In this document: in pieces, positions 8,351-64,000 of the stretch
How positions within the stretch are numbered: the stretch's first letter is position 1
Layout: each line of letters begins with the position of its first letter
Virus record (IMG/VR): IMGVR_UViG_3300030450_001823
Location: 33,236 to 97,235 of that record
Origin: a virus
Length of the DNA stretch: 64,000 bases
Direction: 5' to 3' (one strand)
Translations under genes and position numbers: made by a program
The notes under the pieces: generated by a model
What the model was told of the DNA's origin: nothing
The model's database searches: none
The model's input: the letters and a program-made list of their open reading frames with translations, nothing else

Positions 8351-8781
8351 TCTCCCCTTAACATACCAATGGCCTTGTTGTATCTCCGAGCGAGACTCTC
8401 ATGTGGTTGCCTCTTTAGATTAGCATGTAAGTCGGCCAATTTCACTTGCCTTGCTTCGGGGTGTTCGTTGGCTCGTTGAATGAAATCAAAGTATTGTTCT
8501 CCTTCACGACGAGTCAAAGCATCAATTGCTGAGCCTACTTCGGGACCAAAGCGTTCATGGATTTCGTCTAAACTCACTCCCGTATCTTCTACCACATCAT
8601 GTAAGTAAGCGATGCGCTGTAGGTACGGGTCAGTGAAACCACTGGCAACATCCTCTACATGCGTCATGTAAGGTTGGTCTCCGTATAGTTGGTCACCGTG
8701 TGCTTGAGTAGCAAACTCGCGGGCTTCTTGGGGCATTTTCAGAATCCTCCAAGCCTTATCCATTGGTGTCATGCCACTCAC
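8347..8781 (-). CDS. HD-domain hydrolase, SpoT/Mesh1 ((p)ppGpp hydrolase)-like, with N-terminal AWxxLK tag
   Basis: AHGDQ..G..PYMTH, AYLHDVVEDT, FGPEV...IDALTR and VKLADLHAN are hallmark RelA/SpoT HD motifs. Confidence 0.85.
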   Translation of the reverse strand: MSGMTPMDKAWRILKMPQEAREFATQAHGDQLYGDQPYMTHVEDVASGFTDPYLQRIAYLHDVVEDTGVSLDEIHERFGPEVGSAIDALTRREGEQYFDFIQRANEHPEARQVKLADLHANLKRQPHESLARRYNKAIGMLRGE

Positions 8782-11700
8782 TCCCCGCTATGGTCTCCTG
8801 TATTATAAGATGCATCACCGTCACTACCCTTTGGATGCAATGTTTGACTGTACCTTGGCTGTACGCTGTAATCGCCTTCTTCATCATCAGGTGATTTACG
8901 ACTTGCATCTGCTCTAAAGTGTTCAAGTGTATTTTCAGTCATAACTACTCTCGCCACAGGTGAGCGTATGTCAGCCTTGTTATATCCTGTTACATCTACA
9001 CCCTGAATCTTAGGACCTTGGCTTGTAGGTACAGTTGTACTGGAAGTAGGGGTAATTGAGTAAACAGGTGCATACGGCGGGCTACTCGGAGTACCCGTTA
9101 ACGCACCCGGAGCATCACTTGTGAATAGCCCGTATTTACCTCCGGCTGTCGCTCTGTAAAAGTTAGAGCCGCCCTGTATAGTGTCATCCCCGTCAGTATC
9201 GTCAGCACTTATCACAGGCGCTGGTCTGAATAGTTGTACATGCTTGTTATCCAGCACTTGAGCAGGGCGATAAAGGAAATCAATTGTAGAATCAGTAGCA
9301 TTTGTATTTTGGAGAGTAGAGTCGTGGGCGGCGTTTTGATAAGGATTAGATGATGAAGAGGCCCCTGCTTGCCCCCAGCCCTTGACATCAAGTACACCTG
9401 CGTATCTGCTCCATTCCATAGCATATGTACCGCCCAAAGGCCAATAGGCATGCGCGTTGGAAATCCTAGTTATACCTGCCTTTGGATTAGATGAAAAGTT
9501 AAGGGCAGTTAAGTCAAAGTCAGTCAAAGTTCTACTTGCACCATCCATAGCCCCTCTTACGGTAGTTCTCTGACCTATTTCCCTGTCAGTGTGTAAACTC
9601 ACAGCCTCAGTTGACATAATTACATACTCTCTACTAACGCCTTCGTTCAGTTCTCCTATTGTATCTACATCAAGTCCTATTCTAACATCGTCTCTGCCAA
9701 CAGGCTCGGCCAAACGAGTATCAGCAGTGATAGTTTCAGTACCTTCTGCAACAGAAGCGCTTGGCTTGAGCAACCCATCTTCGCTAGCGACATCTAATCT
9801 AGCACTGATTCCTCTTTCAATCTCACCTGACTGCAAAGCCAAGTTACTTGGCCTCACCAAACCTTGGCCGAAGGCTGGCTCTGCTGTGCTATGAGACAAT
9901 ACTAGTCCGGTAGCCTCATGTGTTTCGCTGACATCCATTAGCATACTTTCATTGAATACTGTAGGCCAGCGGACCCCTCTACCATCTCCTCTGTCACCTA
10001 CTCTGAGAGCGCTGGCTGGGTTGAACCAATCCGCTACTCCCATGTTACTAGCGTCATTATTAGCGGTGTTAGCATTTCCACTTTGACGGTCGTTACCATC
10101 CCCTCCAAACAACGCATTAGCAGCAGGTCGGTGAGCGATATTAGTATCTGTATAAGCGTCTTCGGGGTCCCAAGCAGGGCGTATACCAAACCCTCTTACA
10201 GGGAAGCGCCTGACATCTTCTCCACGAGTATTGCCCCACCAGTCGACCATATAGTAGCGATGAGCATTAGCCAATTCGGATATATCTTTACCGGCATTGT
10301 CACCCGGATATTCTCTTCTGACAGTAGATGCATTTCTGATAGTTCTAACAGCACAGCCAAACGGTTGAGTCATTCTGCGACCATCGCTGTACCTTACTTG
10401 GCGACCAATTTGGTCTTGGTTGAGTAATGCACTAACTTGTGTTAACCTTTCCAAGATGCCGACATAAGAAGCGACAAAACTGACATCGCCCAAAGCAGTA
10501 TCGCTACCTACATAGTCCCAGCCGTTAGTCTTGTTATCTTGCTGTATAAGCGGGCCGTGATAATAGCCTAGTAGAGCGTTAGAATTAGCGACTTCTAACC
10601 AACCTCGGACATATTGCCCCCATCGTGGTCTATTATACGCCTGTCTAACTCCGAATCTATAACCAAAGCAATGGTTACGAGCATAAGGTGAAGCCACAGT
10701 AGCCTCATTGTATGTGCGGGTTCTGATACCTGTATTGTCATCAAATGTACCACAGTCCATACCGTATGTCTCCCCGCCCCAACCAATCAAAGAATCTCCA
10801 TATGCCTCTAATCGACTGACTGCTCCTCCTCCATGAGAGCCGCCCGGCCAAAAGCCAGCGAAGTTATATTTTTCACTAAGATAGAGTGCTTCGTTGTTTG
10901 TCAAAACCACTAATGTTCCGCCACCAAATGTGACTCCGTATGGAGCACTGCCGTCAACAGCCGTAAGTACACCGACTAAGATTCCAGCGGAATTGTATAC
11001 GCTATCACCTACTTGGAACTTAGTAGTAGGGTCAACTGCGTCTACAGGAATAGCGCTAGTAGTGTTAACGCTGTAGGTATTACTGGCACCTGACGGGTGA
11101 TTAATCAAAACACCACTACTTTCTGTACTACTTTCTACTCCACCTTGGTGTTTCAGATTAGTATCGAGGTCAATGACTGCGGCTGTATGAACTATGCCGT
11201 CAGCAGCGTTTGTAGGACTGGTGCCCCCTCCGGGTGGCGCTATCCAACTCATAGCGAATCCAAATGGACCTTTGCTCGCTACATAATTGAAATCTTGATA
11301 ATGAATTGTCTCAAAGTGCTCAGGTAGCATATTGTAAGGCTTCTTATCCAAAGGTGTATCTGCTGCTCCAGCCTTGGTATAGAAATTACGAGTACCACCG
11401 TCAGCAGTGTCACTATACCAAGTGAATGGTCTGCCGAGATTCGGATGCCACATGCATAAATATGCATCAGGTACATGTAGGCTGTTTGTATCTCTACTGC
11501 CGTTAGATATTTGAGGCAAAGCCCTTGTAATTATACTAGATAACGAATTAGTGAATACTTTGTCAGAGGAATGGTTGTCATAAGGTCTAGTCAGTTTTAT
11601 GATAGTGCCTGTTGCAATGTTAGCCCAAAACTCACCACTACCGCTGACAGTTGAGAATGTAACAGATGCACCTAATGTTGCATAAGCAAGAGTACCTGTT

Positions 11701-14700: not shown

Positions 14701-17700
14701 TTAGCGATAAGAGGCAATTCACTTTCGTGAGTAATCGCAATCAAGTGTCGAGAAGACAAGCCGTTTACGCAATAATCTGAAAATGTAGCAGTAGCAGTAT
14801 CACCTGTTCCGACTGGAGATGATGCCGCTAAACAAGTTTCAGCAGCACCGTATGGATTGAAACCAAGGGATGGGTGCCAAGCACCTAATCCAGCAGGGTA
14901 AACACCTGAGCCGACTTGTGTACCTGTATAGGAGTTCATGTAAGAGTAGGCTTCTCCAGCCCAGCCTACTGCTCCTACAGGCTTGGTACGGTCTATTGCA
15001 TCAATTAACCCATTGTAGTGAACTTGGGTAATATGGTCTCTTGTTGTAACCGTGTTATCATTATTCAATCGGTGTGTACCGGATTTAGCCCAAACATACG
15101 CCTTGAAATCACTGGTGGCGGTAACTTCTCTATCATTGGTAGGATTGATGAAAGAAGTACTTTTTGCACAGTCTACTAGAAGTATTCTTGCAGCACCGTC
15201 ACCACCTGCCGGTATCACCAACTCTCCGGGCTGATAACCTGAACCGGCGGTAGCAATACTAATTCCAGTTATTTCACCGGAGCCTCCGACTGTGAGAGCC
15301 AGCGTTAGCCCAGTACCACTACCGCCGCTTGTAGAAACAGTTGCTGCACTATAACCTGCACCGGGCACTGCGACAGCAGCCACTGACGGTACGGTTGAGT
15401 TAACACTTTTTCCTAAAAAGATTGAGCCAGTATTCCCATTAAACCCGGCAATCGTAAGGTTTGCGACATCTTCTGTAATCGTAGTATTGCCTGAAATACC
15501 AGCAACTGCGTTGGTTAAAGTAAAAATACTCGTACTTGTTTCAGTTACTGTAATTTTACCAGCATGCCCGTTAGCGTGCTCTATTGCAGCCTTGATTTGC
15601 TCCAAATACTGATGCTGAGTAGCACTTGAAAAGTTGATACCAACCGCTATGCCTCCTGTTAGACTATCTCCGGCTGTACCTGCACCTGTGTCTGAATTAG
15701 AAACTAATACTGTTCCAGTAGCAACCCCTCCAGCGTTAGTATCTGTCAATACATATACTCTTACCGTGCCATCTGCTGCGGTAATAGTCACCTTTTGTTT
15801 CTCAGTCATACCGTGTGCGCTACCTTGAGCCGCAACCGTAAGTGTAGCAGTAGTAGTTATGTCAGTATAAGGTGCATATCCAGCGGTATTGCCGTCACTA
15901 ATGCGAATCCAACCATATTTAGGTAAAGTTTCAAGGGATGCATTGTTAGTGACAACCAGTTTATTCGCTGGCTCAAAAGAAGCAATATCCAACTGTACCC
16001 AGCCGTACCTATCTTGTTTGTGAGCATTCTGCATTGAAGGCAAAAAGGTACCACCTATTGCCTTGAGTGGGTCTTTACCGGGGAATGTGTTGATAGACGC
16101 ACTGATGACTGCTCCTAATTCTTCTGCGTTTTGTACACGAGTAGCGTCTATCAATACTACATTGTCATCATTCGCTTGATTATCAGGTGAACCTCCATAC
16201 TGAGTTAAATATGCTTTAGCCAAAAGTCCACAAGGTCTGAAAGCAGATACATTATGCTTATTGGTACCACCTGTAGCAAGTCTACCACCTTCTACAGCGT
16301 GTTTAGGATTTATGTTAACATGGTTATCAAGGAAATGTCCGCCGGGATGATAGCCTCCATCCATGTGCCAAATTACAGAAGACTTCTTTGTAGCAGGGTG
16401 ACTACTTGATTCAAGAGCGTTACCACTTGAGTCAGTAAATATATGACTAAATGGATGAGCGCTTGGTGGTAACGCTACTCCAAATGTAAAGGGAGAGCCT
16501 TCGTAATAAAATGCCCTATCGTAAGTTTGTGCAAATGTAGTACTACCACTTACAGCAACGCTTGGGAATCCTTTAGTAGGCTCCCAGTTCATATCGTAAT
16601 TAAAGGCTGAAAGTTTATTGATTTGGAAAAATGTAGTTCTAGGTAAATGTCCGATAACGGCACCACTAGCATGGTTTATCAAACCGGCAACGGTGCTATC
16701 TCCATTAGTCAATGAGTTAGGTAAAAATGTTTCAAGACTGACAGTGCTACCATCAGTATAAATTGGCACTGCACTGTAACCATTACCGCTCGTAACTATA
16801 TTGGCACCCTGTGGCTCAAAAGCAGCAGAATTGTGCGGGAATGCTTGGCCGGGACCAAATACCATGTAGATAGTTTGGTCAGCAGTATTACCCGTAGCAC
16901 TATATCTAGCGTGAGGGTGAGCAAATCTAAGTACAATTGGACTAGGTAAATTAGCGTGGACTGCGTTGCTACCATCTGTATAAGTAAGTCCAGTGAACTT
17001 AGTATTAGCACCCTTCGCCATGTCAAATGGTAATAGGCTATCTTGATTAAACAAAGGAGGATTATTTTTACCTTTATGGTCGTCTAAGTAAGGTGTACCG
17101 GGAAACATAGCCAGCATAGCGTTAGTATCGAGTAACGCGTAGGAGCCAGCGATTTCTCCTACATTTTGAAGACCAGCAGAACCTGTAGGGCCACCTGCGT
17201 ATGGGTGCGTGTAAAAATCACCATAGTCGTTTTGAGTACCGTCGTTAATATCCATAACAACGCCACTGAAACCACCACCGAAGTAAAGTGGTACCCAATG
17301 GTCGGGACTATCTCTACCTCCTCTAAAGTAGAGGAACGGACTAGACATTTTGCTACCAGCCCTACGAATACCATCTGTTTTCATGCCATTCTTGACATCA
17401 CCGTTTCGCATAAGAACTTCATCGTCGCTGTCGTGACAGAAAGAAGCAAAGTTGGCACTAACACCTGTACCTGCCCCGTAAGTAAGTTTAGTTTCAACTG
17501 CTGCTCCGGGCGTACTAGCAACCTCTGCGTATTCTTCTGAACCCCACCAAATTGTAAATCGCTCGCCCCAAGCCTGTGCATGGTCTGAACCCGGTACACA
17601 TATCGAATACAAGTAAGTGCTACTTGCGGTTGTTATTAGAGTACCACTATCAGTGGTTTTCAAAATCATAGGGCTGTCTACCTTTGGTATAATGTGGTCG

Positions 17701-36282: not shown

Positions 36283-36726
36283 TCACCTTAGCCAAGCGTT
36301 ACCACTTGAATAACCCTGTTGTTTCAAAATAGACCAAGCGTCATCAAACGACTTGCGATACATAAAGTCAGGGTGACCTCCGTGAGGAGGCTCGCTTGGA
36401 GCAGGTGCCGCTGCTTCGGGTGGATAGCCTTGCTCTATTGCGGTTTGTTCTTCACCTGTGACATTAGGTTGATTCATTTGTGGTTCTTGGGCACCTTCGG
36501 GCACTCCATCTAAGAACTCAATACCGTGTGCTTGTGGATTAGCCATCGCTTCTTGGATTAAATTATCACGAGCCATTTGCCAGTCAGGACCTGCACGGTC
36601 TCCTCCAAGTTCTCCAACAGCCTCTGCTGCTTTTCTATTAGCCCACTTTCCTAATCTAGTTTGCTCACCGTCGACTAATATCTTTTGACGGTGTGGATTG
36701 GGTTGTTTCAAAATATAAACTGTCAT
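36283..36726 (-). CDS. Hypothetical protein with C-terminal AWxxLK tag
   Basis: 147 aa, Pro/Gln-rich; ends ...YRKSFDDAWSILKQQGY. Confidence 0.6.
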   Translation of the reverse strand: MTVYILKQPNPHRQKILVDGEQTRLGKWANRKAAEAVGELGGDRAGPDWQMARDNLIQEAMANPQAHGIEFLDGVPEGAQEPQMNQPNVTGEEQTAIEQGYPPEAAAPAPSEPPHGGHPDFMYRKSFDDAWSILKQQGYSSGNAWLR

Positions 36727-39641: not shown

Positions 39642-41036
39642 TTAATTCCATACACTCCCTGCTAGAGCGTGTACCTCATCCCAGTTCATGTTACCGAGTT
39701 CCTCTGTTGAAGGAATCTCTACGGTGGAGTTGTCTGTTGCTTTACGGATTTCTATACCTGCTGGTTTTGTAGCAAGGTCGTCAATTCTAGCACCGAGGTC
39801 AGCAATTGCTTTCTCGATGTTACTTAGTGGTGCACGAGCGTCAAACTCTGATGCTGCGCGAGCCTCTGCTTCGTAGTTAAGTTCCTTTGCAAGGCGGTCT
39901 GAAAATACATTGTTCAAGGAACCCTTGAATTGTTCTTCAAGAGCAGCAGCCTTGTAGACTTCGTATGCAGCCTCGATGTCAGTTGAACTGACATTGCTTG
40001 GGTGCAAGTAACCTTTCGATACACTCTTACCGGAATTAATCTTACCAAGTGCGCCAGTAGATGGGTTGCCACCTTCTTGCTCACGGTTCGCTGTCTGTCC
40101 CGACATTTGTGCCGTATCTATTTGCTCAGGTGTACTACCAAGGTTAGCCTTAGCGACATCGTCAAAGTGACTTCTTGCCGCACCAGTGTCAACGCCTTGT
40201 GATTTCAAGGTGTTTTCCATCCAGTTTAGGTATTCACTTGATATTACATCAGAGTATTCGCTCTTTTCCATATCATCGTATGCCTTTTTCTCTTCGTCTT
40301 TCATATCTTTCGCCTCATCTTTAGGTGCGTCATCTTTCTCATCCTTAGACTCGTCTTTAGCATCATCTTTGGATTCCATAAAAGGAGGAAGGTCGCCCTT
40401 CTCCATTGAATCCATATGTTTGCTCATTCGGTCTAAGACACTAGAAAGTTCTGCTAATGTTTCTGTTTCACTTGTCATATCTGTGTCCTCCTTCAATATA
40501 CGGAATGTCGCCTCCGGGTTAATACCTTTTTCACAAATAGTAACTTCATGCAGTTCCAACTTGGAGATTTCTGTATAGTCTCCGTGTTTATCATCGGCCT
40601 TACGCATTCTCTTAAACGCTTGACCTCCGATGCTGAAACCAGTTAGGTTACCTTTGCGAATATCATTGGCTACTTCACGAGCCTTTTCGATGTCATCTCT
40701 TAGTTGAATGACTACGAACATACCGGCGTCATCGACACCGGATTTCCACACACGACCGTCAGAGTCAGTGTATTGTGGTATTACACTACCAACCTGTATG
40801 TTAGAGTGTGCGAGTTGTACATTTCTAAAATCTTCTGCTTTCATAAAGTTACCAAAAGCGTCTTTTAGTGCTCCACGAGTGATTAGGTCTCCTTGCTTGT
40901 CAACCATTTCAACACTGGCATAACCAGCGATTACAAGGTCGTTACCTGCCTTAATGATACTGATATTCCCCTCGTGATGAACGGGGGAGGTTCTCAGTGA
41001 AAGTGAGGCGACCATGCTTCTATAGAGAATGACCAT
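39642..41036 (-). CDS. HK97-type prohead protease fused to scaffold
   Basis: IAGYASVEMVDKQGDLI, VQLAH (His), GFSIGG (Ser), ELHEVTICEKGINPEA; acidic/helical C-terminal scaffold. The start may be ATG at 41015. Confidence 0.9.
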   Translation of the reverse strand: MVILYRSMVASLSLRTSPVHHEGNISIIKAGNDLVIAGYASVEMVDKQGDLITRGALKDAFGNFMKAEDFRNVQLAHSNIQVGSVIPQYTDSDGRVWKSGVDDAGMFVVIQLRDDIEKAREVANDIRKGNLTGFSIGGQAFKRMRKADDKHGDYTEISKLELHEVTICEKGINPEATFRILKEDTDMTSETETLAELSSVLDRMSKHMDSMEKGDLPPFMESKDDAKDESKDEKDDAPKDEAKDMKDEEKKAYDDMEKSEYSDVISSEYLNWMENTLKSQGVDTGAARSHFDDVAKANLGSTPEQIDTAQMSGQTANREQEGGNPSTGALGKINSGKSVSKGYLHPSNVSSTDIEAAYEVYKAAALEEQFKGSLNNVFSDRLAKELNYEAEARAASEFDARAPLSNIEKAIADLGARIDDLATKPAGIEIRKATDNSTVEIPSTEELGNMNWDEVHALAGSVWN

Positions 41037-46511: not shown

Positions 46512-46967
46512 TTAGTTAAAATGGCGGTCAAGTCGCTGTGCAGATTTCTTTATGTCTTGTAGGTTTAGTTTTTCCTCGGAGCCGCCTAGCGATTTCTGAA
46601 TTGGAGTACTACCGCCCTTTTCGTTCACACGATATGATTGTTGGTCATCGAATGCATCAGGAAATTGCGTTGGTTTGTCAAGTATGTTACTTTTTTCTGA
46701 GGTTGCACCTGCGTTTTTGACATCTTCTACTTCGGGTATAACATTATTTGTGTTGTAAAATACATTAGGAACTTTACCCGGTTGTGTTTCAAATCTTTCA
46801 ACTCCTTGTGTAGAGCCTTCTTTTTGATTACCATAATCAGGTACAGCCTTGGTAAGCCTTTCCTCTAATTCTTTTGCTTCTTTTAGCAAACTGTCATATT
46901 CTTCATCACGAGGTTCGTATCTTGGTTTCATATTATCAATCCATTCCAATGTTATTTCCAATCGCAC
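46512..46967 (-). CDS. Hypothetical head-module protein
   Basis: ORF between portal and protease with LTKA, IQKS and IKKS sites. The real start is probably MKPRYEP (~46931). Confidence 0.55.
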   Translation of the reverse strand: MRLEITLEWIDNMKPRYEPRDEEYDSLLKEAKELEERLTKAVPDYGNQKEGSTQGVERFETQPGKVPNVFYNTNNVIPEVEDVKNAGATSEKSNILDKPTQFPDAFDDQQSYRVNEKGGSTPIQKSLGGSEEKLNLQDIKKSAQRLDRHFN

Positions 46968-47310
46968 CTACACTTTTAGCCTTATCAGCAAGTGCATGAA
47001 TATCGGCCCATTCCATAGTATGGAAATCGGCGTTGTTTGTAGGTACTGATATTTCATGCCCGTCTTCACCCTTGATTATCATTTCATCAGAGTTTCCTCT
47101 AAACTCATCAGGCATCAAATCTTCGGGTGCACTGTTACTTGCTCTTACAAAACCTGCCTTCTTTAGCAAAGTCATTGGGTTATTGAGCATAGATTTTAAT
47201 TGTTTATTCTCTGCTTTGATTAATTGGATACTATTATCCATGTTTTCCATTTTACTAATGAGCGCGCCCATTAGTTTTTCTGCGGTGTTAGTTTCCCCCT
47301 CGTCTGTCAT
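46936..47310 (-). CDS. Scaffold-like coiled-coil protein
   Basis: N-terminal heptads; C-terminal MEWADIHALA resembles the protease/scaffold C-terminus MNWDEVHALA. Confidence 0.55.
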   Translation of the reverse strand: MTDEGETNTAEKLMGALISKMENMDNSIQLIKAENKQLKSMLNNPMTLLKKAGFVRASNSAPEDLMPDEFRGNSDEMIIKGEDGHEISVPTNNADFHTMEWADIHALADKAKSVGAIGNNIGMD

Positions 47311-52289: not shown

Positions 52290-52295
52290 ATCTCA

Positions 52296-53333
52296 TCACT
52301 CCATATCCTTAACCGTCTGCCATAACTCAGCATATTGCGGAGTATTTTCTCTACCTTGAGCGCGCCACTGGTTTAACTTAGCCATCATAGCCGCTTTTCC
52401 TTTAGCGGGGTCTCCACCAGCAATGACACTTCCTTGGTTAGCATTAAGTCTACTCGTTTGTTGCTCTATCCCTGCTTGCTGTTCTGCACTAGGGTCCGTA
52501 TAAGATTCATCCTTAAGATTAAACCCATCAGGTGTTTCGCTGGCACTTTCTATGTCATTAATTTCATCAGCGGCACCACCTTCTCTGCTACCCATACCCA
52601 CCGGTTGGACTATATTATTAGTAGCAGCAGGTGATGCACTAGCCAAAGTTTGTACCGGTTGCCCAGCAGCATTTTGTCCGACCATAGGAGGAGAAGGATT
52701 GGGGTTAGAAGATTGACTTACCGCAACCATAGGAGGAGAAGGATTGGGGTTAGAAGATTGACTTACCGCAACCATAGGAGGAGAAGGATTGGGTATAGGT
52801 ACAGGAGGTTGCGGTGGCGAAGGTGGAACTTGAGGTGGTTTGTAAGGAGTAACCACTGGATTTGCATTTCTACGATTTACTGCAACCAAGTTTGCGTCTG
52901 CTGCATCTTTAACGGCTGTATTTTTACGACGCATAGCGGCCATTGGATTAAACCTACTCATAGGACCTTGCCCTCTTGAACGGGCCTGTTCTGCAAGTTT
53001 AGCATTCTGTACTGCTACTTTTTGTTTATTATCCTCTCGTATGTTTGCTCTTGCTTGACCTTCTCTAGTTACGGTAGAGCGACCTAGACCTTGCCCAAGT
53101 TGTTTACCTTGAACTCCGCCTGAAATTGCTGACTGGGCCAAGCCTCCCAAACTACGATGCTGACCCGCTAAAGAACCAAGGGCACCGAGGACACCACCTG
53201 CCATACCGCCTAGTTTTTCTCTAAAAGTTTTACCTCTTGCTTTTTCATTTCCACCACCACTGGCTACCATAATTGGAGGCCCGCCACTTGCTGGATACTG
53301 TGCACCTATTCCTTTAACGAGTACTTTACCCAT
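52296..53333 (-). CDS. Low-complexity Gly/Pro/Gln-rich protein (possible internal/ejection protein)
   Basis: Gly-rich hydrophobic helix GGMAGGVLGALGSLAG, Pro-rich middle and an internal tandem repeat. Confidence 0.55.
   Translation of the reverse strand: MGKVLVKGIGAQYPASGGPPIMVASGGGNEKARGKTFREKLGGMAGGVLGALGSLAGQHRSLGGLAQSAISGGVQGKQLGQGLGRSTVTREGQARANIREDNKQKVAVQNAKLAEQARSRGQGPMSRFNPMAAMRRKNTAVKDAADANLVAVNRRNANPVVTPYKPPQVPPSPPQPPVPIPNPSPPMVAVSQSSNPNPSPPMVAVSQSSNPNPSPPMVGQNAAGQPVQTLASASPAATNNIVQPVGMGSREGGAADEINDIESASETPDGFNLKDESYTDPSAEQQAGIEQQTSRLNANQGSVIAGGDPAKGKAAMMAKLNQWRAQGRENTPQYAELWQTVKDME
52681..52793. repeat. 45-bp in-frame tandem repeat, 2.5 copies
   Basis: accataggaggagaaggattggggttagaagattgacttaccgca at 52681 and 52726, with a partial copy at 52771; encodes PNPSPPMVAVSQSSN. 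Confidence 0.95.
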
Positions 53334-55450
53334 CAGAATACACCTCCAAATGCGACTTTAACAGCCTTTACTATCTCAGGTTTAACACTCCATTCGTCAG
53401 CAACTTTGTACCAATCACCTTGGCTTTGATAAAGACCGTGCACATCTACTCCGGTGAGGCCGAGGCTTTTAGCAATGTCTTGTACATCCCAATAAGAATC
53501 AATTGAAAGCGCACGATTAGGTATCATTTTTGTAATATCTTTATCTTGACGAGCATCCATTATCTGAACTAACTCAATCTTTTTGCGTATTTCGTCTAAA
53601 TTAACCAAAATATCATCTGAGCGCTGTACCAAAGCACCGGAGCCAATATCCCAAAGTTGTTGCCTAGGGTCCATCCCTAACCTATTACCGAAGTATTGTT
53701 CTTCAAAAGGAGCGGCAGGTCTTGTAGGATAAGCAGCAGGGGCTGCTGCTGTAGGAGTAGGCATTACTTGTTGAGGCATAGGTGCAGCAGGTGCAGGTGC
53801 AGGTGTAGGTGCAAGAGGACCGACTGCTACTTTTTCTCGTTGAGGAACTGGCATTTCTCTACGAGCATTAGAAGCAGGTGCTAGGTCACTAGTACCTACG
53901 ATTCTTTTTTGCCAGTGCTCAGGTACTTCTGTATGGGTTTCGCCAAAGCCGTGTGGCAAACCACCAGCAATATGCTCAGTAGGAACTGAGCCAAGATTAA
54001 ACTTTTCATGACCTTGTGCCCCCATAATTCTACCAATTAGGTCTTCTGTTTTTTCACGCAGTCCTTCTACCGGAGCGTATCTTGACTTTTGACTTTCGTG
54101 CGCTCTTAAATTAGTAGCCGCTTGCTCAAGTGCCTGTTCTTCACTCATACCTTGTTGCATATACTTACCTGCAAGGTTACTCAAATGACCGACAATATCG
54201 GCTGCTCTGATATTAGCAGTTTTATGATAAGAAGGACCTTCGGTAGAAACAGCGGCTTTAGCATTAGAGCGGTGTAATTTATATTCTTCATCAGTATGAT
54301 GACTACCTAATTCTCTAAAGGTGTTATTAATAGCAGTTTTAACAGCACCTCCGCCACTACCTTCTAGGTTATGAGTTCGACTAAAAAATAACTTCATAGC
54401 CATTGTACCAGCCATTTGGTTTAACTCTTCGGGAGAATAGCCTTCTGTACTAACACCTGCTTGTTGCATAACACTTGCTAGTTGTTCACCAGCAGAAACA
54501 GGGTCCTCTTCACCTCCCTTTGGTCTACCTCCACCACTACCAGTAGCACCGTGATAAAATACATCAGGTAAAAGATGAGCGACTTGATGAGCATGTATGT
54601 CGCCGTGAGTTCTTTGAGAATCTAACTGACTTCTAACTTCGGGATGTAAATAATTATCAGGAGAAGTACCACTTAATCCAGCCTTTGCTGCGTCTGTTTT
54701 GTTCCAAGATACTACCAAATCATTTGTTAAATAGTTAGGCTTGAGTACAGAGTACTTAACATAAGGTAACCTTTTGTACTCATTTGGTGGCACACCTGCT
54801 GCTGCTAATTCTTCTCCAATCTCTTTGTGAAAATGAATGTGCCCACCATCAATCCAAGAACCTTGGTCTGCGCCGGTTTCAGGGTCTACATTTCCCATGT
54901 TCATTGAATATGTAACTAAAGGTCTAGGTCCTCCTTCGTAAAGAGGGGTGTCGCCTCTAATTTGCCTTTCCTCGGCGGGAGTCTTAGGGTCGATGTAATC
55001 ACCGGCAAATGTTTTTCTCCATTCAGGACTTTCAAATGGAGGCAAACCATGATTTGTATCACGAGGGTGTTTCATATTATATCTGTCAATAGCATTGTTA
55101 ATAATTTGAGTAGCAGATTCAGGTCCGTATTTTTCAGACAAGTCCTTGTGCACATAATCAATCGGGTGATGACCAAAGGCAGTACCGTCTTGATTATTTA
55201 TCAACTGCCCAGTTTGAGGATTATGCGACCAAGGAGGGTGGTCGGGTTCATTTGGGTCAGGATTAATTGCATCTTCGGGTGCCCATGAGTGAACAAACCC
55301 TCTGTTATTTTCACCACCTACTCGATAATGTAACAAACCACTCTTGCGAATATCCATTGACTCAAGATAAGCCTTTAGAAAAATACCTGAGCCGTAAGTC
55401 TTGGCTTGCTTTTTGAAATAACTATGGGCAGGTTGGTGAACTCTAAACAT
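53333..55450 (-). CDS. Hypothetical 705-aa protein (possible internal virion protein)
   Basis: Long ORF with a Pro/Ala linker and a small helical C-terminal domain; IRKSG site near the N-terminus. Confidence 0.6.
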   Translation of the reverse strand: MFRVHQPAHSYFKKQAKTYGSGIFLKAYLESMDIRKSGLLHYRVGGENNRGFVHSWAPEDAINPDPNEPDHPPWSHNPQTGQLINNQDGTAFGHHPIDYVHKDLSEKYGPESATQIINNAIDRYNMKHPRDTNHGLPPFESPEWRKTFAGDYIDPKTPAEERQIRGDTPLYEGGPRPLVTYSMNMGNVDPETGADQGSWIDGGHIHFHKEIGEELAAAGVPPNEYKRLPYVKYSVLKPNYLTNDLVVSWNKTDAAKAGLSGTSPDNYLHPEVRSQLDSQRTHGDIHAHQVAHLLPDVFYHGATGSGGGRPKGGEEDPVSAGEQLASVMQQAGVSTEGYSPEELNQMAGTMAMKLFFSRTHNLEGSGGGAVKTAINNTFRELGSHHTDEEYKLHRSNAKAAVSTEGPSYHKTANIRAADIVGHLSNLAGKYMQQGMSEEQALEQAATNLRAHESQKSRYAPVEGLREKTEDLIGRIMGAQGHEKFNLGSVPTEHIAGGLPHGFGETHTEVPEHWQKRIVGTSDLAPASNARREMPVPQREKVAVGPLAPTPAPAPAAPMPQQVMPTPTAAAPAAYPTRPAAPFEEQYFGNRLGMDPRQQLWDIGSGALVQRSDDILVNLDEIRKKIELVQIMDARQDKDITKMIPNRALSIDSYWDVQDIAKSLGLTGVDVHGLYQSQGDWYKVADEWSVKPEIVKAVKVAFGGVF

Positions 55451-57057
55451 CAGCCGACCCTCCCACTACCTCTTGCTGCAAACATAGTAGAAGGTGCGCC
55501 CCAGTTCTTAGGGTCATTTTCCATATCTTCTGTGGCACCTTCGTTTCTAGTAGTACTATCTTGGCCTTCTCGATGCCCTGCCTCTCTATTTTGACCGGGA
55601 CCTGCTGAAACAGCAGCCTTGTTATGTCTATCTCTATTTTCCATAGATTCTTTCATGCGTCTAAGTAACCTACGCATTTGGGCAAAGTGCATGTAATCCA
55701 TTTTTTTAGAAACTTCATCTAGTTGTTTTTTAACTTTAGTCAAGTCATCTGACTTAGCCAAAGACTGACCCATTAATTTAGGAGCAGTTGGTGCTCTAAT
55801 ACTCAACCCTTCTCCAGTACTTATCTTAGGAGGTTTAGGATTATATGTTCTTTCAGAACTTAAGCCGTGACCTGACATCGGTTGAGGTATGTTACCCATT
55901 AATTTACGACGAGCCACAGTACCCATTTGGTGTCTATACTTTTCAGGAAATAACTTGAGAGGTTGCTTTGTAGAAACACCAAGGTGGCTCATATGAACAG
56001 AAAGAGGACTACGCATAAGTCCATGCTTTTTACTGGGTTGTAAATATCTTGAGTGTAACTTAGAGCGACGAGAAGTAGCAGTAGATATGTTAGCACCACC
56101 GGGCTGAATACGGAATAGCGGCTGAGTCCAAGGTTTCAATTCTTTGCCACCAACTTTGTCAAGTCTACTTTTTATCAAACTACTCCAAGCGTCATCAATT
56201 GGCTCGCCTGTAGAAACCGTATTGTCATGAGCCGTACCAGCAAGTGGAGAAGCAGGTGCGCCACAATCAGGGCAAGGTTGGCTTAGAATCTTACCTTGAC
56301 AAGTAGGGCATTGTGGAAGGAGTGGGTTAATAGTCTGTACAGGAGGTCTTTTGTACCTACGCATAGTAGGTGACTCGTCTACTCTGTCTTTCATCAAACT
56401 CGACCAAGCGTTATCAATTGGCTCGCCTGTTGTAAAATAATCAGGGTCACCGTGAGCATCGCGTCTAATCATTCCCCGCCTTTGCTCACTTTCTCGCATT
56501 TCTATTACAGGCTCAGCAGCCAATCTCCTAAGTCTGTTAATTTCTGCTTGAGGGTCAATAGGAGGAGGTCTTCTACTAAACTTCTCGTCAGGAACTTCGT
56601 CATCTTTTTCTTCATTATCGTCTTCTTTCATAAGACTAGACCAAGCATCCTCCATCGGCTCACCTGTAGCAAGCATGCCGCCCGGTGCTGGCATTGTACC
56701 CGTTGCGTTACCAATACTGAGATTACCAGTATCAGGCATACCGGTCATTGCGCTGAGTTGATTACCTTCTTGATATTGGTCAGCCATAGGGTCTTCTTCT
56801 TCTTCCTCTTCCATACCCGGCATCATAGGTGGCATCTCAGGCTCAGGTTTAGGAACTTCAATAGTAAGATGTGGTAAATCAGAAGCCTGTGTTTCTGCAT
56901 CTTTTTCAGCAATGCGCTTATCCTTCGCTGCCTCCATCGCTTCGGGGTCACCTATACCATAAGTGTAATCGTCTTCATCCTTGGTATAACCAAGCATAGA
57001 CTCAGAACGAGGACTATACATCCTTGTATCAGAACCTGTACTCATATTACCCGGCAT
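55450..57057 (-). CDS. 535-aa modular protein with three TGEP.D.AWSSL.K repeats
   Basis: Acidic N-terminus, three tag copies, a CxxC...CxxC cassette and a basic C-terminal half. Confidence 0.65.
   Translation of the reverse strand: MPGNMSTGSDTRMYSPRSESMLGYTKDEDDYTYGIGDPEAMEAAKDKRIAEKDAETQASDLPHLTIEVPKPEPEMPPMMPGMEEEEEEDPMADQYQEGNQLSAMTGMPDTGNLSIGNATGTMPAPGGMLATGEPMEDAWSSLMKEDDNEEKDDEVPDEKFSRRPPPIDPQAEINRLRRLAAEPVIEMRESEQRRGMIRRDAHGDPDYFTTGEPIDNAWSSLMKDRVDESPTMRRYKRPPVQTINPLLPQCPTCQGKILSQPCPDCGAPASPLAGTAHDNTVSTGEPIDDAWSSLIKSRLDKVGGKELKPWTQPLFRIQPGGANISTATSRRSKLHSRYLQPSKKHGLMRSPLSVHMSHLGVSTKQPLKLFPEKYRHQMGTVARRKLMGNIPQPMSGHGLSSERTYNPKPPKISTGEGLSIRAPTAPKLMGQSLAKSDDLTKVKKQLDEVSKKMDYMHFAQMRRLLRRMKESMENRDRHNKAAVSAGPGQNREAGHREGQDSTTRNEGATEDMENDPKNWGAPSTMFAARGSGRVG
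56170..56667 (-). repeat. Three dispersed 42-bp in-frame repeats (56170-56211, 56389-56430, 56626-56667)
   Basis: Encode TGEPIDDAWSSLIK, TGEPIDNAWSSLMK and TGEPMEDAWSSLMK; DNA core ccaagcgt(c/t)atcaattggctcgcctgt is shared by two copies. Confidence 0.9.
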
Positions 57058-57066
57058 TTAATCAAC

Positions 57067-57768: not shown

Positions 57769-57828
57769 AACGCTCCGAGAGCATGCACACGAATAACCCT
57801 TTTGAACAAAGACCGATTGCGTAGAGTA

Positions 57829-58344: not shown

Positions 58345-58348
58345 AGTA

Positions 58349-59002: not shown

Positions 59003-59004
59003 CT

Positions 59005-60048: not shown

Positions 60049-60055
60049 TTCCTCC

Positions 60056-60778: not shown

Positions 60779-60786
60779 AATATCAC

Positions 60787-61035: not shown

Positions 61036-61041
61036 AAAGAA

Positions 61042-61632: not shown

Positions 61633-61697
61633 CTATCGGGAGATGGTACATGACATAAAGTGTTCTACTAATGATTTAAGTATCACTAAAGTAAGGC

Positions 61698-61734
61698 GGG
61701 TCGGAGAATGCGAGAGGGTTGCCCCCTCCGACCC
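61698..61734. terminator. GC-rich stem-loop in intergenic region (possible terminator or RNA structure)
   Basis: gggtcggag (61698-61706) is the perfect reverse complement of ctccgaccc (61726-61734); lies between the 442-aa gene and the GTPase operon. Confidence 0.45.
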
Positions 61735-61766
61735 ATGTAGGCCGAGAAGGAAAGGGGTCTTCAAAC

Positions 61767-63095
61767 TCACTCTTCTTTTTCGTCTTTTTCAGAGTCAAGT
61801 TTCATACGCTTACCATCCTTTGATGGTCCGGGTCCGGCTTTGCTACTAATTACAATAACCATACCATGAGCGGGCTTCTTACTATCTTCCTTTTTGTTCT
61901 TGTATTCTTTACAATTACAGTTCTTTTTACCACATGCAGGGCAAACTGCCTTGTACATTATATCTTCTGCTTGTTTTAACATTCTTTCTCCTATTTTCAT
62001 ATTCTCACCTTTTGTTGCCTTTTCACCCATGCCAAATCCTCCGCCAAATTGCATAGTGTTCTCTTTACCAGTCCAAATGTCTTGAAGACCAGTTCTGTTA
62101 CTGAATTGATTATCCACGCCACCAATGTCAGTACCTTCGCCAAAGCCACTAGCAGCACCGCCTGTATTACTTTGACCAAAACCACCGCTACTAGCACCAC
62201 CATAAGCACCAAAGCCGGAGGTATTTGGGTCAACTGAATAGTCATCTGCCATATTTTGTGCAAAGTAAGGTGCTAACAAACCTGCTACAGGTCCAGCCAA
62301 TTGCGTTGCTCTACCAGCAGCACCCATCACACGACCCATAGGCTGCGTAGGTCTGAAACTAGTAGGACTATTACCGTATGTGGTCAAACGATTACCTAAC
62401 TTACTTTCAAGAGGTGCTGTATAACGAGCGGCTTTATCAGAAACTTGTTGAACTTTTGCTTGGTGCTGCATAGCGGGAGTAACAGCGGGTTTAGTCATAA
62501 CCGTATTCCTTTGTAACCAAGTCGGGCCTCGCGTTCCTCTACCAATTCCATATTGAGCAGGTCTTCCACTAAACTGACTAACAGGACCAACATCGGCTGC
62601 TGCTTCTGCTCTTGCAGCCGCTATCCTACCCCGATTAATACCGTCTGTTCTTGCAGCGAGTCTACCACCTGCTGTTCTTGCAAGTGGTTTTGAAACTCCC
62701 GCAGCCCCTAGTCCTCTTGCTGCTGCACCTGCTCCTCTTACATAGGTAAAAGGATTAATCGCTTGGGTAGCACCAGTCGCCGCTCCACCGAGTAAATCAT
62801 ACCACTCAGGGTCTTCAACTTCATGCCTACCAAGATAGCCTCCTGTAATAGGGTCTTCATACCGAGCCTTTTCTCCAATACCACCAAAAAACTTCTTATC
62901 AGGGTCTCCCCAAGCGTCAAAGCCATGCATACCTGCGCCTCGTGCAGCACCGTATGCTCCAAACGCTAAAGGAATAAGGGGTAAAAACTTCTCAACCTTG
63001 TCAGGGTCATTTGTCTGTTTTAAGACAGCCCAAGCAGCGTCACTCGGTGACAAATCTGACTTCGACATGTACATTCCCACTGCCTCTGTTTTCAT
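61767..63095 (-). CDS. Gly/Ala-rich protein with N-terminal AWxxLK tag (possible ejection protein)
   Basis: SPSDAAWAVLKQ, then hydrophobic Gly/Ala helices; C-terminal CPACGKKNCNC. Confidence 0.65.
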   Translation of the reverse strand: MKTEAVGMYMSKSDLSPSDAAWAVLKQTNDPDKVEKFLPLIPLAFGAYGAARGAGMHGFDAWGDPDKKFFGGIGEKARYEDPITGGYLGRHEVEDPEWYDLLGGAATGATQAINPFTYVRGAGAAARGLGAAGVSKPLARTAGGRLAARTDGINRGRIAAARAEAAADVGPVSQFSGRPAQYGIGRGTRGPTWLQRNTVMTKPAVTPAMQHQAKVQQVSDKAARYTAPLESKLGNRLTTYGNSPTSFRPTQPMGRVMGAAGRATQLAGPVAGLLAPYFAQNMADDYSVDPNTSGFGAYGGASSGGFGQSNTGGAASGFGEGTDIGGVDNQFSNRTGLQDIWTGKENTMQFGGGFGMGEKATKGENMKIGERMLKQAEDIMYKAVCPACGKKNCNCKEYKNKKEDSKKPAHGMVIVISSKAGPGPSKDGKRMKLDSEKDEKEE

Positions 63096-63252
63096 AAGCC
63101 TGTCGCAAAAAACGATAATGGTCTACTGCATTCATCAATAATGAAATGTTTTCCCAAGAGTCTTTTTTGTCTACAAACGCATCAAGGTGCATAATATCTT
63201 TTTCTGACTGTTTTAACATATCAGTCAGTAGTATGCTCCACCAATCTTCCAC
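63040..63252 (-). CDS. Small hypothetical protein
   Basis: 70-aa ORF on the coding strand filling the gap between neighbours. Confidence 0.45.
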   Translation of the reverse strand: MEDWWSILLTDMLKQSEKDIMHLDAFVDKKDSWENISLLMNAVDHYRFLRQAYENRGSGNVHVEVRFVTE

Positions 63253-63272
63253 GCTTACCCTACCGTGTGATA

Positions 63273-63539
63273 TTACTTAAGCGTGCCTCGCTCTTTGAAA
63301 TGACGAGCACGGTTTGCATGAGGGTCTTCTGCGACCATAGTGCCTTCTTTGGTATGACTCATATCAGGACCACCTTGCCCATAAATACCACGCTTACGAC
63401 GCTCTTGGTTCAAAGACTCACGATATTTGACTCTTTCAGGATTAGATTCATATTTTTTATCATACTCTACTTTATGACGCAGTGCTTCGGGAGAAGAAGC
63501 ATGCTTTAACATACGCCAAGCGATGTCGAAGGCAGTCAT
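63273..63539 (-). CDS. Small HNH-like protein with N-terminal AWxxLK tag
   Basis: MTAFDIAWRMLKH..., then Y.KKY...R.K.R..LN..RR...G.D.SH......ED...NRAR, a minimal HNH-like pattern. Confidence 0.55.
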   Translation of the reverse strand: MTAFDIAWRMLKHASSPEALRHKVEYDKKYESNPERVKYRESLNQERRKRGIYGQGGPDMSHTKEGTMVAEDPHANRARHFKERGTLK

Positions 63540-63540
63540 C

Positions 63541-64000
63541 TCATTGTTCACCTTCACTCACCCCGACATGGCCTTCATCTTCCATTTGACTCCAAAATTG
63601 GTGAGCGTTGCCCTCGCCAAGTATTTCATCCCGACTCACATACGGCTTGAAATTAGGGTATCGGGCTTGTATCTCCGCAATCATTTCCAATAATCGTTCT
63701 CTCCCCAAACCTTGTCCTTGTAATTGATGTGGAATCCCAAAAGCATGAATCAATCCCTCTTTGGTTGCACTTCCTCTTGCATCATCCGGTTCAGAAGTCC
63801 AACCAATATCGCCTTCTTTTGTATTGCTAAGGTCATGCAGAAAATCATCCAAAACACCTTCTTGTGGGTGGGTCTGTTGATTCCATGTTTTAGGGGCCTT
63901 TTCGCCTCTTTCATACAAAGGCATCTTGAGCAACCGCCAAGCGAGGTCCATAGGTTCGCCTTTGTTGTAACCTCGTTTTTGTTGAAGGACAGGGACCGGA
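63541..64000 (-). CDS. GNAT acetyltransferase-like domain preceded by GEPMDLAWRLLK tag (ORF open to window edge)
   Basis: IHAFGIPHQLQGQGLGR (acetyl-CoA motif A) and AHQFW. The frame stays open upstream of ATG 63951 (...QQKRGYNKGEP-MDLAW). Confidence 0.6.
   Translation of the reverse strand, partial: PVPVLQQKRGYNKGEPMDLAWRLLKMPLYERGEKAPKTWNQQTHPQEGVLDDFLHDLSNTKEGDIGWTSEPDDARGSATKEGLIHAFGIPHQLQGQGLGRERLLEMIAEIQARYPNFKPYVSRDEILGEGNAHQFWSQMEDEGHVGVSEGEQ

What the first reader, a model, noticed from the sequence alone, without database searches (positions are those of the whole stretch)
8737..63960. Shared 'D-x-A-W-x-x-L-K' peptide tag on unrelated proteins: candidate capsid-loading and proteolytic-release system for effector cargo
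Seen: the same ~10-14-aa motif occurs 8 times in 6 non-homologous ORFs. The copies are PMDKAWRILK (HD hydrolase, 8737-8766), SFDDAWSILK (36322-36351), TGEPIDDAWSSLIK, TGEPIDNAWSSLMK and TGEPMEDAWSSLMK (56170-56667), PSDAAWAVLK (63018-63047), TAFDIAWRMLK (HNH-like, 63504-63539) and GEPMDLAWRLLK (GNAT-like, 63925-63960). In the HD, HNH-like and GNAT-like proteins it precedes the enzymatic domain, and it always ends in a Lys. The Trp-Ala core is ccaagc on the + strand in all eight. Known: T4 internal proteins use a short capsid-targeting sequence that the prohead protease removes. Inference: this amphipathic helix is a portable address label that docks unrelated enzymes in the prohead; cleavage after Lys would release them for injection as early host-takeover or anti-defence effectors. 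I know of no description of such a tag in archaeal viruses.
Basis: partly seen in the sequence, partly recalled or inferred. Interest (0 to 1): 0.92.

Follow-up and report, generated by a model that had tools for sequence, protein, structure and literature searches.

The report
Portable address tag on magrovirus proteins
This uncultured ocean virus of archaea (a magrovirus) puts the same ten-residue helix, ending in an invariant lysine, on seven unrelated proteins, and its relatives put it on more than a hundred protein families; it is most likely a label that loads fast-changing accessory proteins into the virus head, but neither loading nor cutting has been shown.

Summary
All 8 copies lie at the stated coordinates, and a 9th lies upstream of the window. 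That gives 9 copies in 7 proteins, against 0.5 expected from shuffles.

The motif is P-Φ-[D/E]-x-A-W-x-x-L-(Φ)-K. It is selected at the protein level: synonymous codons vary freely. It is widespread in related IMG/VR contigs, on 307 distinct tagged ORFs in about 142 BLAST-unlinked groups. It is essentially absent from 596 Gb of cellular genomes, and Lys is never replaced by Arg.

Tagged genes sit on the late strand, in variable slots of the head/tail block. They are not in replication genes or core head genes.

HD-hydrolase and GNAT-like homologues occur with and without the tag. The bacterial HD homologues have none.

More distant magroviruses use a second, mutually exclusive version (M-S-W-x-D-I-L-K). 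That version nearly copies the C-terminal tail of their own head protease/scaffold. In this virus the tail (M-x-W-x-[D/E]-V-H-A-L-A) shares only W-x-x-Φ with the tag.

Best reading (about 0.5): a T4-CTS-like capsid-loading tag, perhaps with a protease cut after Lys. Neither step is shown. No paper I searched describes it. This scan had already noted the same tag system in at least 21 other genomes.

The parts
8737..8766 (-). Tag copy 1 (P-M-D-K-A-W-R-I-L-K), N-terminus of the HD hydrolase
   Evidence: 20.3 bits. AlphaFold2 puts residues 3-12 in a helix continuous with helix 1 of the HD domain.
8347..8781 (-). Cargo 1: small HD_4 (RelA/SpoT-type hydrolase-like) protein. It sits in the variable slot just downstream of the 5723-aa adhesin gene.
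   Evidence: Pfam HD_4 on residues 20-110 and phrog_990. Viral homologues carry varied tags; bacterial homologues carry none. The same slot holds other tagged genes in G003 and G004.
36322..36351 (-). Tag copy 2 (S-F-D-D-A-W-S-I-L-K), 12 residues before the C-terminus of a 147-aa protein (ORF 36283-36726)
   Evidence: 14.6 bits. The gene lies in a variable slot of the connector block. Among 80 related head modules it was found only in the near-identical relative L092. G003 and G004 hold other tagged genes in this slot.
55450..57057 (-). Conserved 'multi-tag' protein (535 aa). It has an acidic N-terminal part, a Zn ribbon and a basic 239-aa C-terminal part (pI 10.6), and is predicted disordered.
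   Evidence: In the first survey its family had 28 members, all with internal tags. Orthologues in G001 and G003 lie between the TerS-like gene and TerL. pI values are. The ESM Atlas model has pLDDT 0.40.
56626..56658 (-). Tag copy 3 (P-M-E-D-A-W-S-S-L-M-K), internal, two-Φ form
56389..56421 (-). Tag copy 4 (P-I-D-N-A-W-S-S-L-M-K), internal
56170..56202 (-). Tag copy 5 (P-I-D-D-A-W-S-S-L-I-K), internal
63018..63047 (-). Tag copy 6 (P-S-D-A-A-W-A-V-L-K) near the N-terminus of a 442-aa G/A-rich basic protein (ORF 61767-63095)
   Evidence: 6.3 bits, the weakest copy
63504..63533 (-). Tag copy 7 (A-F-D-I-A-W-R-M-L-K), N-terminus of a 94-aa protein (ORF 63273-63557, probable start M-T-A-F-D)
   Evidence: 17.5 bits. 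The body (residues 21-90) matches phrog_6437, a family of unknown function, and the tag lies outside that profile match.
63925..63954 (-). Tag copy 8 (P-M-D-L-A-W-R-L-L-K) with the internal-type prefix K-G-E. It stands before a GNAT-like body (63541-63924). The ORF is open to the contig end.
   Evidence: Homologues are stand-alone proteins of 135-144 aa with the N-terminal form M-T-A-F-D-x-A-W-x-L-L-K, and one homologue has no tag. Weak fold matches are nearly all GNAT acetyltransferases.
39645..39689 (-). C-terminal tail of the S78 head protease/scaffold fusion (M-N-W-D-E-V-H-A-L-A-G-S-V-W-N), the presumed capsid-docking tail
   Evidence: The tail is conserved in the protease orthologues of the 80 related loci. 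In magroviruses with the other tag version the tail reads M-S-W-S-D-I-H-K, nearly the same as their tag.
46987..47016 (-). The same tail motif (M-E-W-A-D-I-H-A-L-A) near the C-terminus of a 124-aa scaffold-like protein (ORF 46936-47310)
   Evidence: conserved in orthologues
52296..53333 (-). Variable low-complexity protein in the slot just upstream of TerL. Its C-terminus (Y-A-E-L-W-Q-T-V-K-D-M-E) is only tag-like.
   Evidence: The protein in the same slot has a canonical C-terminal tag in G004 and a canonical N-terminal tag in G001.

Best explanation
The peptide P-Φ-[D/E]-x-A-W-x-x-L-(Φ)-K is a portable helical address tag. One virus-specified partner reads it late in infection and brings a fast-changing set of accessory proteins into the assembling head. 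This works like the capsid targeting sequence of phage T4 internal proteins or the C-terminal targeting tail of the HK97 protease. The invariant Lys that ends the tag probably serves a cargo-specific step. The most likely such step is cleavage by the S78 head protease, whose prototype in HK97 cuts after Lys.

Shown: the tag is real, portable, selected at the protein level, virus-specific, helical, and confined to late-strand accessory genes and two conserved disordered proteins next to the terminase gene.

For: 1. Portability. 307 distinct complete tagged ORFs fall into about 142 BLAST-unlinked groups after masking the tag. Conservation drops to background immediately after Lys.
2. The same bodies occur with and without the tag. 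Marine viral HD homologues carry varied tags and bacterial ones carry none. The GNAT-like body occurs with an N-terminal-type tag, with an internal-type tag, or with none.
3. Synonymous codons vary freely, so selection acts on the peptide.
4. The E-P-M-D-x-A-W-x-x-L-K pattern has 6 matches in 596 Gb of cellular genomes, about 4 expected by my own estimate, and at least one match is a mis-binned magrovirus contig. The 91 viral loci alone hold 38 matches.
5. Placement. All 9 copies are on the late strand, including the only - strand gene inside the early block. In G001, G003 and G004 the tags are on the late strand apart from one near-tag (A-W-Q-M-L-F-K) in G003. They lie in variable slots after the giant adhesin gene, in the connector block, just upstream of TerL and beyond the GTPase operon.
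6. Sister version. More distant magroviruses tag their accessory genes with M-[S/T]-W-x-[D/E]-I-L-K. The two versions never mix: 310 against 4 in one set of loci, 0 against 109 in the other. In those genomes the protease tails read M-S-W-S-D-I-H-K or M-D-W-[S/A]-D-I-H-K, a near copy of the tag. Their tagged genes are interleaved with TerL, portal and protease genes.
7. The two-Φ form here (A-W-S-[S/E]-L-[L/M]-K) is in register with that version.
8. Lys is invariant. It holds in all 73 distinct sister-version tags, and Arg never occurs among 138 distinct contexts of this version. The equivalent position in the protease tails varies (K, D, A, R, Q, S, N). Lys is therefore specific to the cargo tags.
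9. HK97 gp5 reads T-F-N-K-S-L-G-S at residues 100-107, and from my memory mature gp5 starts at Ser104. The S78 domain ends in Φ-K in HK97, HVTV-1 and this virus.
10. Precedent. The T4 CTS is the only conserved part of a diverse set of internal defence proteins and is enough to load foreign proteins (PMC3012670).
Against: - No virion proteome, structure or experiment exists for any magrovirus.
- In this virus the tag does not resemble the tail shared by the protease and the 124-aa scaffold-like protein beyond W-x-x-Φ. The tag profile scores those tails below zero.
- No core head protein within 10 kb of the protease in 80 relatives carries the tag.
- A third of the copies are internal and 15 are C-terminal, unlike the T4 CTS.
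- Lys at the putative site in the MCP N-arm is not conserved in the sister lineage.
- Late-strand position alone does not prove late expression. The tag arrays lie at the upstream end of the late-strand block and could be transcribed early.
- The version of the tag also tracks the type of viral chaperonin.
Confidence: 0.5

Rival explanations
1. The tag is a docking motif for a hub that is not the capsid. The hub could be the virus-encoded chaperonin (client selection), another viral late protein such as the nearby GTPase/membrane operon, or a host protein that the accessory proteins must be brought to.
For: - The tag behaves like a classical short helical motif: it can be N-terminal, internal or C-terminal, sits next to linkers, and has invariant A-W and L-K.
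- All eight near-complete genomes with this tag version that I checked encode a thermosome-type chaperonin. The two near-complete genomes with the other version have a much more divergent chaperonin, about 150 against 400-440 bits to PF00118.
- In this virus the tag differs from the protease/scaffold tail.
Against: - The link between chaperonin type and tag version is confounded by phylogeny, since there are only two lineages.
- The chaperonin gene lies in the replication block on the other strand. Philosof et al. suggest a role in folding replication proteins.
- From general knowledge, no chaperonin is known to pick clients by a defined peptide.
- The sister version copies the head protease tail, and its genes are interleaved with head genes.
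- The tag is absent from cellular genomes, so it does not mimic a host motif in this form.
Confidence: 0.25
2. The tag is mainly a processing signal. It marks junctions where the head protease, or another Lys-specific protease, cuts fused modules apart or activates zymogens, with no role in targeting.
For: - Lys is invariant and never Arg, and conservation ends sharply after Lys.
- Nearly all C-terminal copies keep at least 2 residues after Lys; one ends at Lys.
- 114 copies are internal and lie at module junctions. The multi-tag protein would be cut into acidic, Zn-ribbon and basic pieces.
- S78 domains end in Φ-K, and HK97 has Lys103 directly before the start of mature gp5, which I recall as Ser104.
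Against: - 209 of 338 copies sit at the extreme N-terminus. A cut there would remove only about 12 residues, which makes little sense without a function for those residues.
- Eight residues upstream of the scissile bond are conserved, including an invariant Trp, far more than known prohead protease sites need.
- The sister version resembles a docking tail, not a cleavage site.
Confidence: 0.12
3. The tags bind each other or the disordered multi-tag protein. The multi-tag protein would then act as a multivalent scaffold that gathers tagged proteins into an assembly or condensate (a virus factory), not necessarily inside the head.
For: A conserved, predicted-disordered protein carries 1-3 tags. 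A second low-complexity protein next to TerL is tagged in relatives.
Against: A ten-residue helix is short for self-association. There is no evidence for condensates in archaeal viruses. This reading does not explain the invariant Lys or the likeness of the sister version to the protease tail.
Confidence: 0.08
4. The shared peptide reflects chance, or common descent of the whole proteins from one paralogous family, or a DNA-level repeat.
For: All eight window copies share GCT-TGG. Some N-terminally tagged families share extra residues after Lys.
Against: Shuffles give 0.5 copies against 9 observed. The bodies are unrelated by BLAST. Synonymous sites vary. The HD body has tag-free bacterial homologues.
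Confidence: 0.01

Closest known systems
Capsid targeting sequence (CTS) of phage T4 internal proteins IPI-III and Alt, and the polymorphic ip loci of T-even phages
   Same: A peptide of about 10 residues is the only conserved part of a diverse, fast-changing set of accessory proteins. The genes sit in variable loci. The peptide ends at a residue that could be the P1 site of the head protease (PMC3012670).
   Different: - The sequence is unrelated.
- The protease family differs: S78 (HK97 type) here, against T4 gp21, which from memory cuts after Glu.
- The tag is also internal and C-terminal.
- Two mutually exclusive versions exist in sister lineages.
- The host is an archaeon.
- Loading and cleavage are not shown here.
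C-terminal capsid-targeting region of the HK97 maturation protease gp4 (Duda, Oh & Hendrix 2013, J Mol Biol 425:2765; only its reference entry was seen)
   Same: The protease family is the same (Pfam Peptidase_S78). A short C-terminal tail is conserved on the protease/scaffold fusion and on a second scaffold-like protein. In sister magroviruses the cargo tag is a near copy of that tail.
   Different: In this virus the cargo tag and the protease tail share only W-x-x-Φ. HK97 is not known to load extra cargo in this way. The docking role of the tail in magroviruses is inferred, not shown.
Encapsulin cargo-loading peptides
   Same: Short terminal peptides on unrelated enzymes, joined by flexible linkers, dock to the inside of an HK97-fold shell (from general knowledge).
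   Different: The shell here is a true virus capsid with portal, terminase and DNA. The peptide sequence is different and mostly N-terminal. It ends in an invariant Lys.
Phage P1 Dar anti-restriction proteins packaged in the head
   Same: Defence-countering proteins are incorporated into the head during morphogenesis and delivered with the DNA (PMC9024508 and PMC12810830; I saw only their titles and abstracts).
   Different: As far as I recall, incorporation in P1 follows a hierarchy of protein-protein dependencies and not one short peptide shared by all the proteins.

Membership tests
T4-type capsid targeting sequence system | One short peptide shared by otherwise unrelated accessory proteins | tested here: met
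   9 copies on 7 proteins in this genome. Relatives hold about 142 BLAST-unlinked tagged groups.
T4-type capsid targeting sequence system | The peptide is N-terminal and the prohead protease removes it at a defined site | tested here: inconclusive
   209 of 338 copies are N-terminal, 114 internal and 15 C-terminal. Cleavage cannot be tested here. The invariant Lys and the Lys-ended S78 precedents are only suggestive.
T4-type capsid targeting sequence system | Tagged proteins are present inside the capsid, and the tag is enough to load foreign proteins | not testable with these tools
   There is no virion proteome or expression system for magroviruses.
T4-type capsid targeting sequence system | Homology to the T4 CTS and to the gp21 protease | tested here: not met
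   The tag sequence is unrelated to the T4 CTS as I recall it. The protease is Peptidase_S78, the HK97 type.
HK97-type protease/scaffold targeting tail | Conserved short tail at the C-terminus of an S78 protease or scaffold protein | tested here: met
   M-x-W-x-[D/E]-V-H-x-L-A-G-S-V-[W/F] is conserved in the protease orthologues of the 80 related loci and recurs in the 124-aa scaffold-like protein.
HK97-type protease/scaffold targeting tail | The cargo tag has the same sequence as that tail | tested here: inconclusive
   This holds in the sister lineage: tag M-S-W-x-D-I-L-K against tail M-S-W-S-D-I-H-K. In this window only W-x-x-Φ is shared, and the tag profile does not score the tails.
PIP-box / clamp-binding peptides | Q-x-x-[L/I/M]-x-x-[F/Y]-[F/Y] on replication and repair proteins | tested here: not met
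   The tag has no Gln and has A-W where the two aromatic residues should be. No replication-block gene carries it.
Encapsulin cargo-loading peptide | Terminal peptide on cargo encoded next to a stand-alone HK97-fold shell gene that lacks portal and terminase | tested here: not met
   The genome encodes terminase, portal, protease, tail genes and a replication module.

The most novel reading that the evidence does not exclude
Magroviruses run a virus-encoded peptide code with at least two mutually exclusive versions. It selects more than a hundred fast-evolving protein families for one common fate, and its reader is not the capsid wall. One such reader would be the virus's own chaperonin, whose type (thermosome or GroEL-like) tracks the tag version. 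Alternatively, the invariant Lys is used for a covalent step and not for cleavage. Either case would be a client-selection mechanism with no described counterpart.
Probability: 0.12. Interest if true: 0.9.

Novelty: new variant of a known kind. Interest (0 to 1): 0.78.

Why it matters
Magroviruses are among the most abundant archaeal viruses of the surface ocean, and most of their genes have no known function. If the capsid-loading reading holds, a ten-residue tag that can be searched by sequence would pick out the likely virion cargo or effector set of each genome, about one gene in ten here. It would also show where these viruses evolve fastest against their uncultured hosts. The question then becomes testable: look for peptides starting just after Leu-Lys in particle metaproteomes, and co-express tag-GFP with the head genes. 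If the tag does load proteins into the head, it would be the first capsid-loading signal described in an archaeal virus and a ready handle for packaging foreign proteins.

Tried and rejected
- DNA-level repeat or recombination signal: rejected, because synonymous codons vary at every position.
- Host short-motif mimicry: the E-P-M-D form is absent from cellular genomes. Relatives cannot be drawn for a virus record, so no Poseidoniales-specific control was run.
- Degenerate tags in core head proteins: none found with a profile.
- Likeness of the tag to the end of the protease domain (A-T-F-R-I-L-K): that strand is a conserved part of the S78 fold, also Lys-ended in HK97 and HVTV-1. It is therefore weak evidence, not a tag.
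- MCP N-arm 'L-L-K|A-D' as a conserved cut site: Lys is not conserved in the sister lineage.
- The closest cultured relative, HVTV-1: no comparable tag in its 47-kb structural half, so published halovirus virion data cannot test the idea.
- Cataloguing cargo by Pfam and PHROGs: only 6 Pfam and 9 PHROG families hit among 81 representatives, one member each. 'Kinase-like' and 'HNH-like' have no database support.
- A whole-database profile search for single tags was not run. About 29 bits of motif information cannot reach significance against 1.8 billion proteins.
I could not check whether the two HD homologues called from the Met after Lys really lack the tag.
No multimer prediction was available.
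Full report
**What the window is.** The window is the last 64 kb of a single 97,235-bp contig. The contig encodes a large terminase, portal, S78 head protease fused to an acidic scaffold-like extension, HK97-type major capsid protein, a 5723-aa adhesin-like protein, a replication block on the opposite strand, and a thermosome-type chaperonin. This is the gene set described for magroviruses, viruses of Marine Group II archaea, and the thermosome points to group A (PMC5434244). The closest cultured relatives are haloarchaeal siphoviruses such as HVTV-1, with 34% MCP identity.

- A ninth copy starts the only - strand gene inside the early block, upstream of the window.
- Shuffled proteomes give 0.49 copies of the loose pattern (maximum 4 in 2000) against 9 observed.
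- A profile built from relatives' tags separates the nine copies (6.3-20.3 bits) from everything else (1.3 bits or less).
- The shared 'ccaagc' is only the preferred Ala codon before Trp. Every other position uses synonymous codons freely, here and in 158 distinct tags from relatives. Selection therefore acts on the peptide, not the DNA.

**The tag is a lineage-wide, portable module.**
- A back-translated G-E-P-[I/M]-D-x-A-W pattern found 91 IMG/VR stretches. In 60 of the 97 matches the peptide continues x-x-Φ(Φ)-K.
- The N-terminal form M-x-P-F-D-x-A-W-x-x-L-K found 53 more stretches, often 2-4 copies within 1-2 kb.
- Together these loci hold 307 distinct complete tagged ORFs, median length 180 aa.
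- With the tag masked, they fall into about 142 groups that BLAST does not link (85 groups in the first set).
- 209 copies are N-terminal, 114 internal and 15 C-terminal.
- Taking one tag per group, conservation covers P(-5) Φ(-4) [D/E](-3) x A(-1) W(0) x x L K. It falls to background at the residue after Lys.
- N-terminal copies read M-x-P-[F/L/I]-[D/E]. Internal and C-terminal copies read (T)-G-E-P-M-D.
- Lys is never replaced by Arg in 138 distinct contexts.
- Few cargo bodies can be named: 6 Pfam and 9 PHROG families hit among 81 representatives.

**Natural with-and-without comparisons.**
- The HD protein is an HD_4 (RelA/SpoT-hydrolase-like) domain.
- Its marine viral homologues (56-96% identical) keep the body and carry tags that differ at every non-consensus position. 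One has a 43-residue extension that makes the tag internal. One has a Zn-finger module between tag and body. Two are called from the Met right after Lys.
- Bacterial homologues (47% identity or less) start directly with helix 1 and have no tag.
- AlphaFold2 (pLDDT 94.9) models the tag as a helix that extends helix 1.
- The GNAT-like body at the contig end has stand-alone homologues with the N-terminal tag form, and one homologue without a tag. Here it carries the internal-type prefix, and its ORF is open to the contig end. Its fold matches are weak but almost all are GNAT acetyltransferases.

**The tag is viral, not cellular.** The E-P-M-D-x-A-W-x-x-L-K pattern has 6 matches in 596 Gb of genomes from 185,579 species. 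I estimate about 4 by chance. At least one match is a magrovirus multi-tag gene in a mis-binned marine MAG. The same pattern occurs 38 times in the 91 viral loci alone.

**Where tagged genes sit.**
- I fetched three whole relatives (G001, G003, G004; MCP 72-78% identical) and mapped them onto this genome.
- Tags are on the strand of the structural genes in all four genomes. The one exception is a near-tag, A-W-Q-M-L-F-K, in G003.
- No replication gene carries a tag.
- In 80 related head modules (protease plus or minus 10 kb), only three accessory ORFs carry one.
- Tagged genes fill variable slots: just after the giant adhesin gene (HD here, unrelated tagged genes in G003 and G004), in the connector block (the 147-aa protein here), just upstream of TerL, and in an array beyond the GTPase operon at the end of the block.
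- Two conserved carriers flank the terminase region. One is the predicted-disordered multi-tag protein. The other is a low-complexity protein just upstream of TerL. It carries a canonical tag in G004 (C-terminal) and G001 (N-terminal) and only a degenerate one here.

**A second version of the tag, and the protease tail.**
- Earlier notes of this scan gave the lead, and I checked it.
- More distant magroviruses carry arrays of genes that start M-[S/T]-W-x-[D/E]-I-L-K.
- The two versions exclude each other. Loci fetched for this version hold 310 of its tags and 4 of the other in 1.24 Mb. Loci fetched for the other version hold 109 of its tags and 0 of this one in 0.45 Mb.
- In four genomes with the other version, the head protease ends ...M-S-W-S-D-I-H-K-M-V-G-G...M-D-W-[S/A]-D-I-H-K... 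or ...M-S-W-E-E-[L/I]-N-D-L-V.... That is almost the tag itself.
- In G007 (95% complete) the tagged genes are interleaved with the TerS-like, TerL, portal and protease genes.
- In this virus the homologous tail is M-N-W-D-E-V-H-A-L-A-G-S-V-W-N, conserved across 80 related loci. The same motif ends the 124-aa scaffold-like protein.
- The tail is thus conserved across both lineages, while the cargo tag has two versions.
- The two-Φ form of the tag here (A-W-S-[S/E]-L-[L/M]-K, as in the multi-tag protein) is in register with the other version ([S]-W-x-[D/E]-I-L-K). I read the two as related, with this one extended at its N-terminal side.
- The direct likeness between tag and tail in this genome is still only W-x-x-Φ, and the tag profile does not score the tails.

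**The lysine.**
- Lys ends every tag in both versions: 73 of 73 in the other version, and never Arg in this one.
- The matching position in the protease tails varies (K, D, A, R, Q, S, N). Lys is therefore not needed for whatever the tail does, and it marks a step specific to cargo.
- Cleavage is the simplest candidate. HK97 gp5 reads T-F-N-K-S-L-G-S at residues 100-107, and from memory mature gp5 begins at Ser104.
- The S78 domain ends in Φ-K in HK97 (A-A-M-K), HVTV-1 (V-V-S-K) and here (R-I-L-K).
- Nearly all C-terminal tags keep at least two residues after Lys; one ends at Lys.
- This is suggestive only. The possible 'L-L-K|A-D' site in the MCP N-arm is not conserved in the sister lineage.

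**Verdict.** Capsid loading is the best explanation (about 0.5). It rests on gene position, on the tail mimicry in the sister lineage, and on the T4 and HK97 precedents (PMC3012670; Duda et al. 2013, seen only as a reference). Nothing shows packaging, cleavage or injection.

The main rival is a reader that is not the capsid. The viral chaperonin cannot be excluded, because its type tracks the tag version and every near-complete genome I checked has one. That link is confounded by phylogeny.

None of the three magrovirus papers I searched mentions such a motif. This scan has noted the same system at least 25 times in at least 21 other genomes, so this window is one more instance of a recurring, apparently undescribed feature.

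Noticed in passing
window 39645-39689 and 46987-47016: The head protease/scaffold fusion and a separate 124-aa scaffold-like protein share a second short motif, M-x-W-x-[D/E]-[I/V]-H-A-L-A. It is conserved in relatives and is probably their common capsid-docking tail.
   Followed up: yes
window 63273-63557; L175:4993-7716 (G004), G003 66938-69670, G001 5809-7251: The body of the 94-aa tagged protein is 71-80% identical to a segment inside proteins of 481-911 aa in three relatives. That is far more conserved than most proteins of these genomes. Here it stands alone behind a tag. It has no Pfam or PDB match.
   Followed up: partly
tags in the genome and in L001-L189: Ala before the invariant Trp is never coded GCC (0 of 158; GCT 101, GCA 31, GCG 26). 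GCC-TGG would create CCTGG, so a CCWGG site may be avoided.
   Followed up: no
G000 2560-2587, 9640-9660, 10820-10850, 17385-17410 (upstream of the window): A repeated TATA-like element (GGTTATAAATAAACAAGAGA) precedes several + strand early genes. One copy lies in the 93-bp gap shared with the tagged - strand gene at 16541-17353.
   Followed up: no
window 8347-8781: The tagged HD protein belongs to the RelA/SpoT-type HD_4 hydrolases that sources annotate as (p)ppGpp hydrolases. That is an unexpected activity for a virus of archaea.
   Followed up: partly
L193 (NZQM01000026.1, 'Parvibaculum sp.' MAG); also L191 and L194: A marine bacterial MAG contig encodes a homologue of the magrovirus multi-tag protein, so it is probably a mis-binned viral contig. 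Two other marine MAG contigs carry one tag-like peptide each.
   Followed up: partly
G010 (IMGVR_UViG_3300021958_000021, 184,733 bp): This record holds two protease genes and two chaperonin genes about 90 kb apart. It may be two related viruses joined in assembly.
   Followed up: no
window 63541-64000: The last ORF runs off the contig end, and complete relatives are 103-110 kb. About 10 kb, probably with more tagged genes, is missing from this record.
   Followed up: partly
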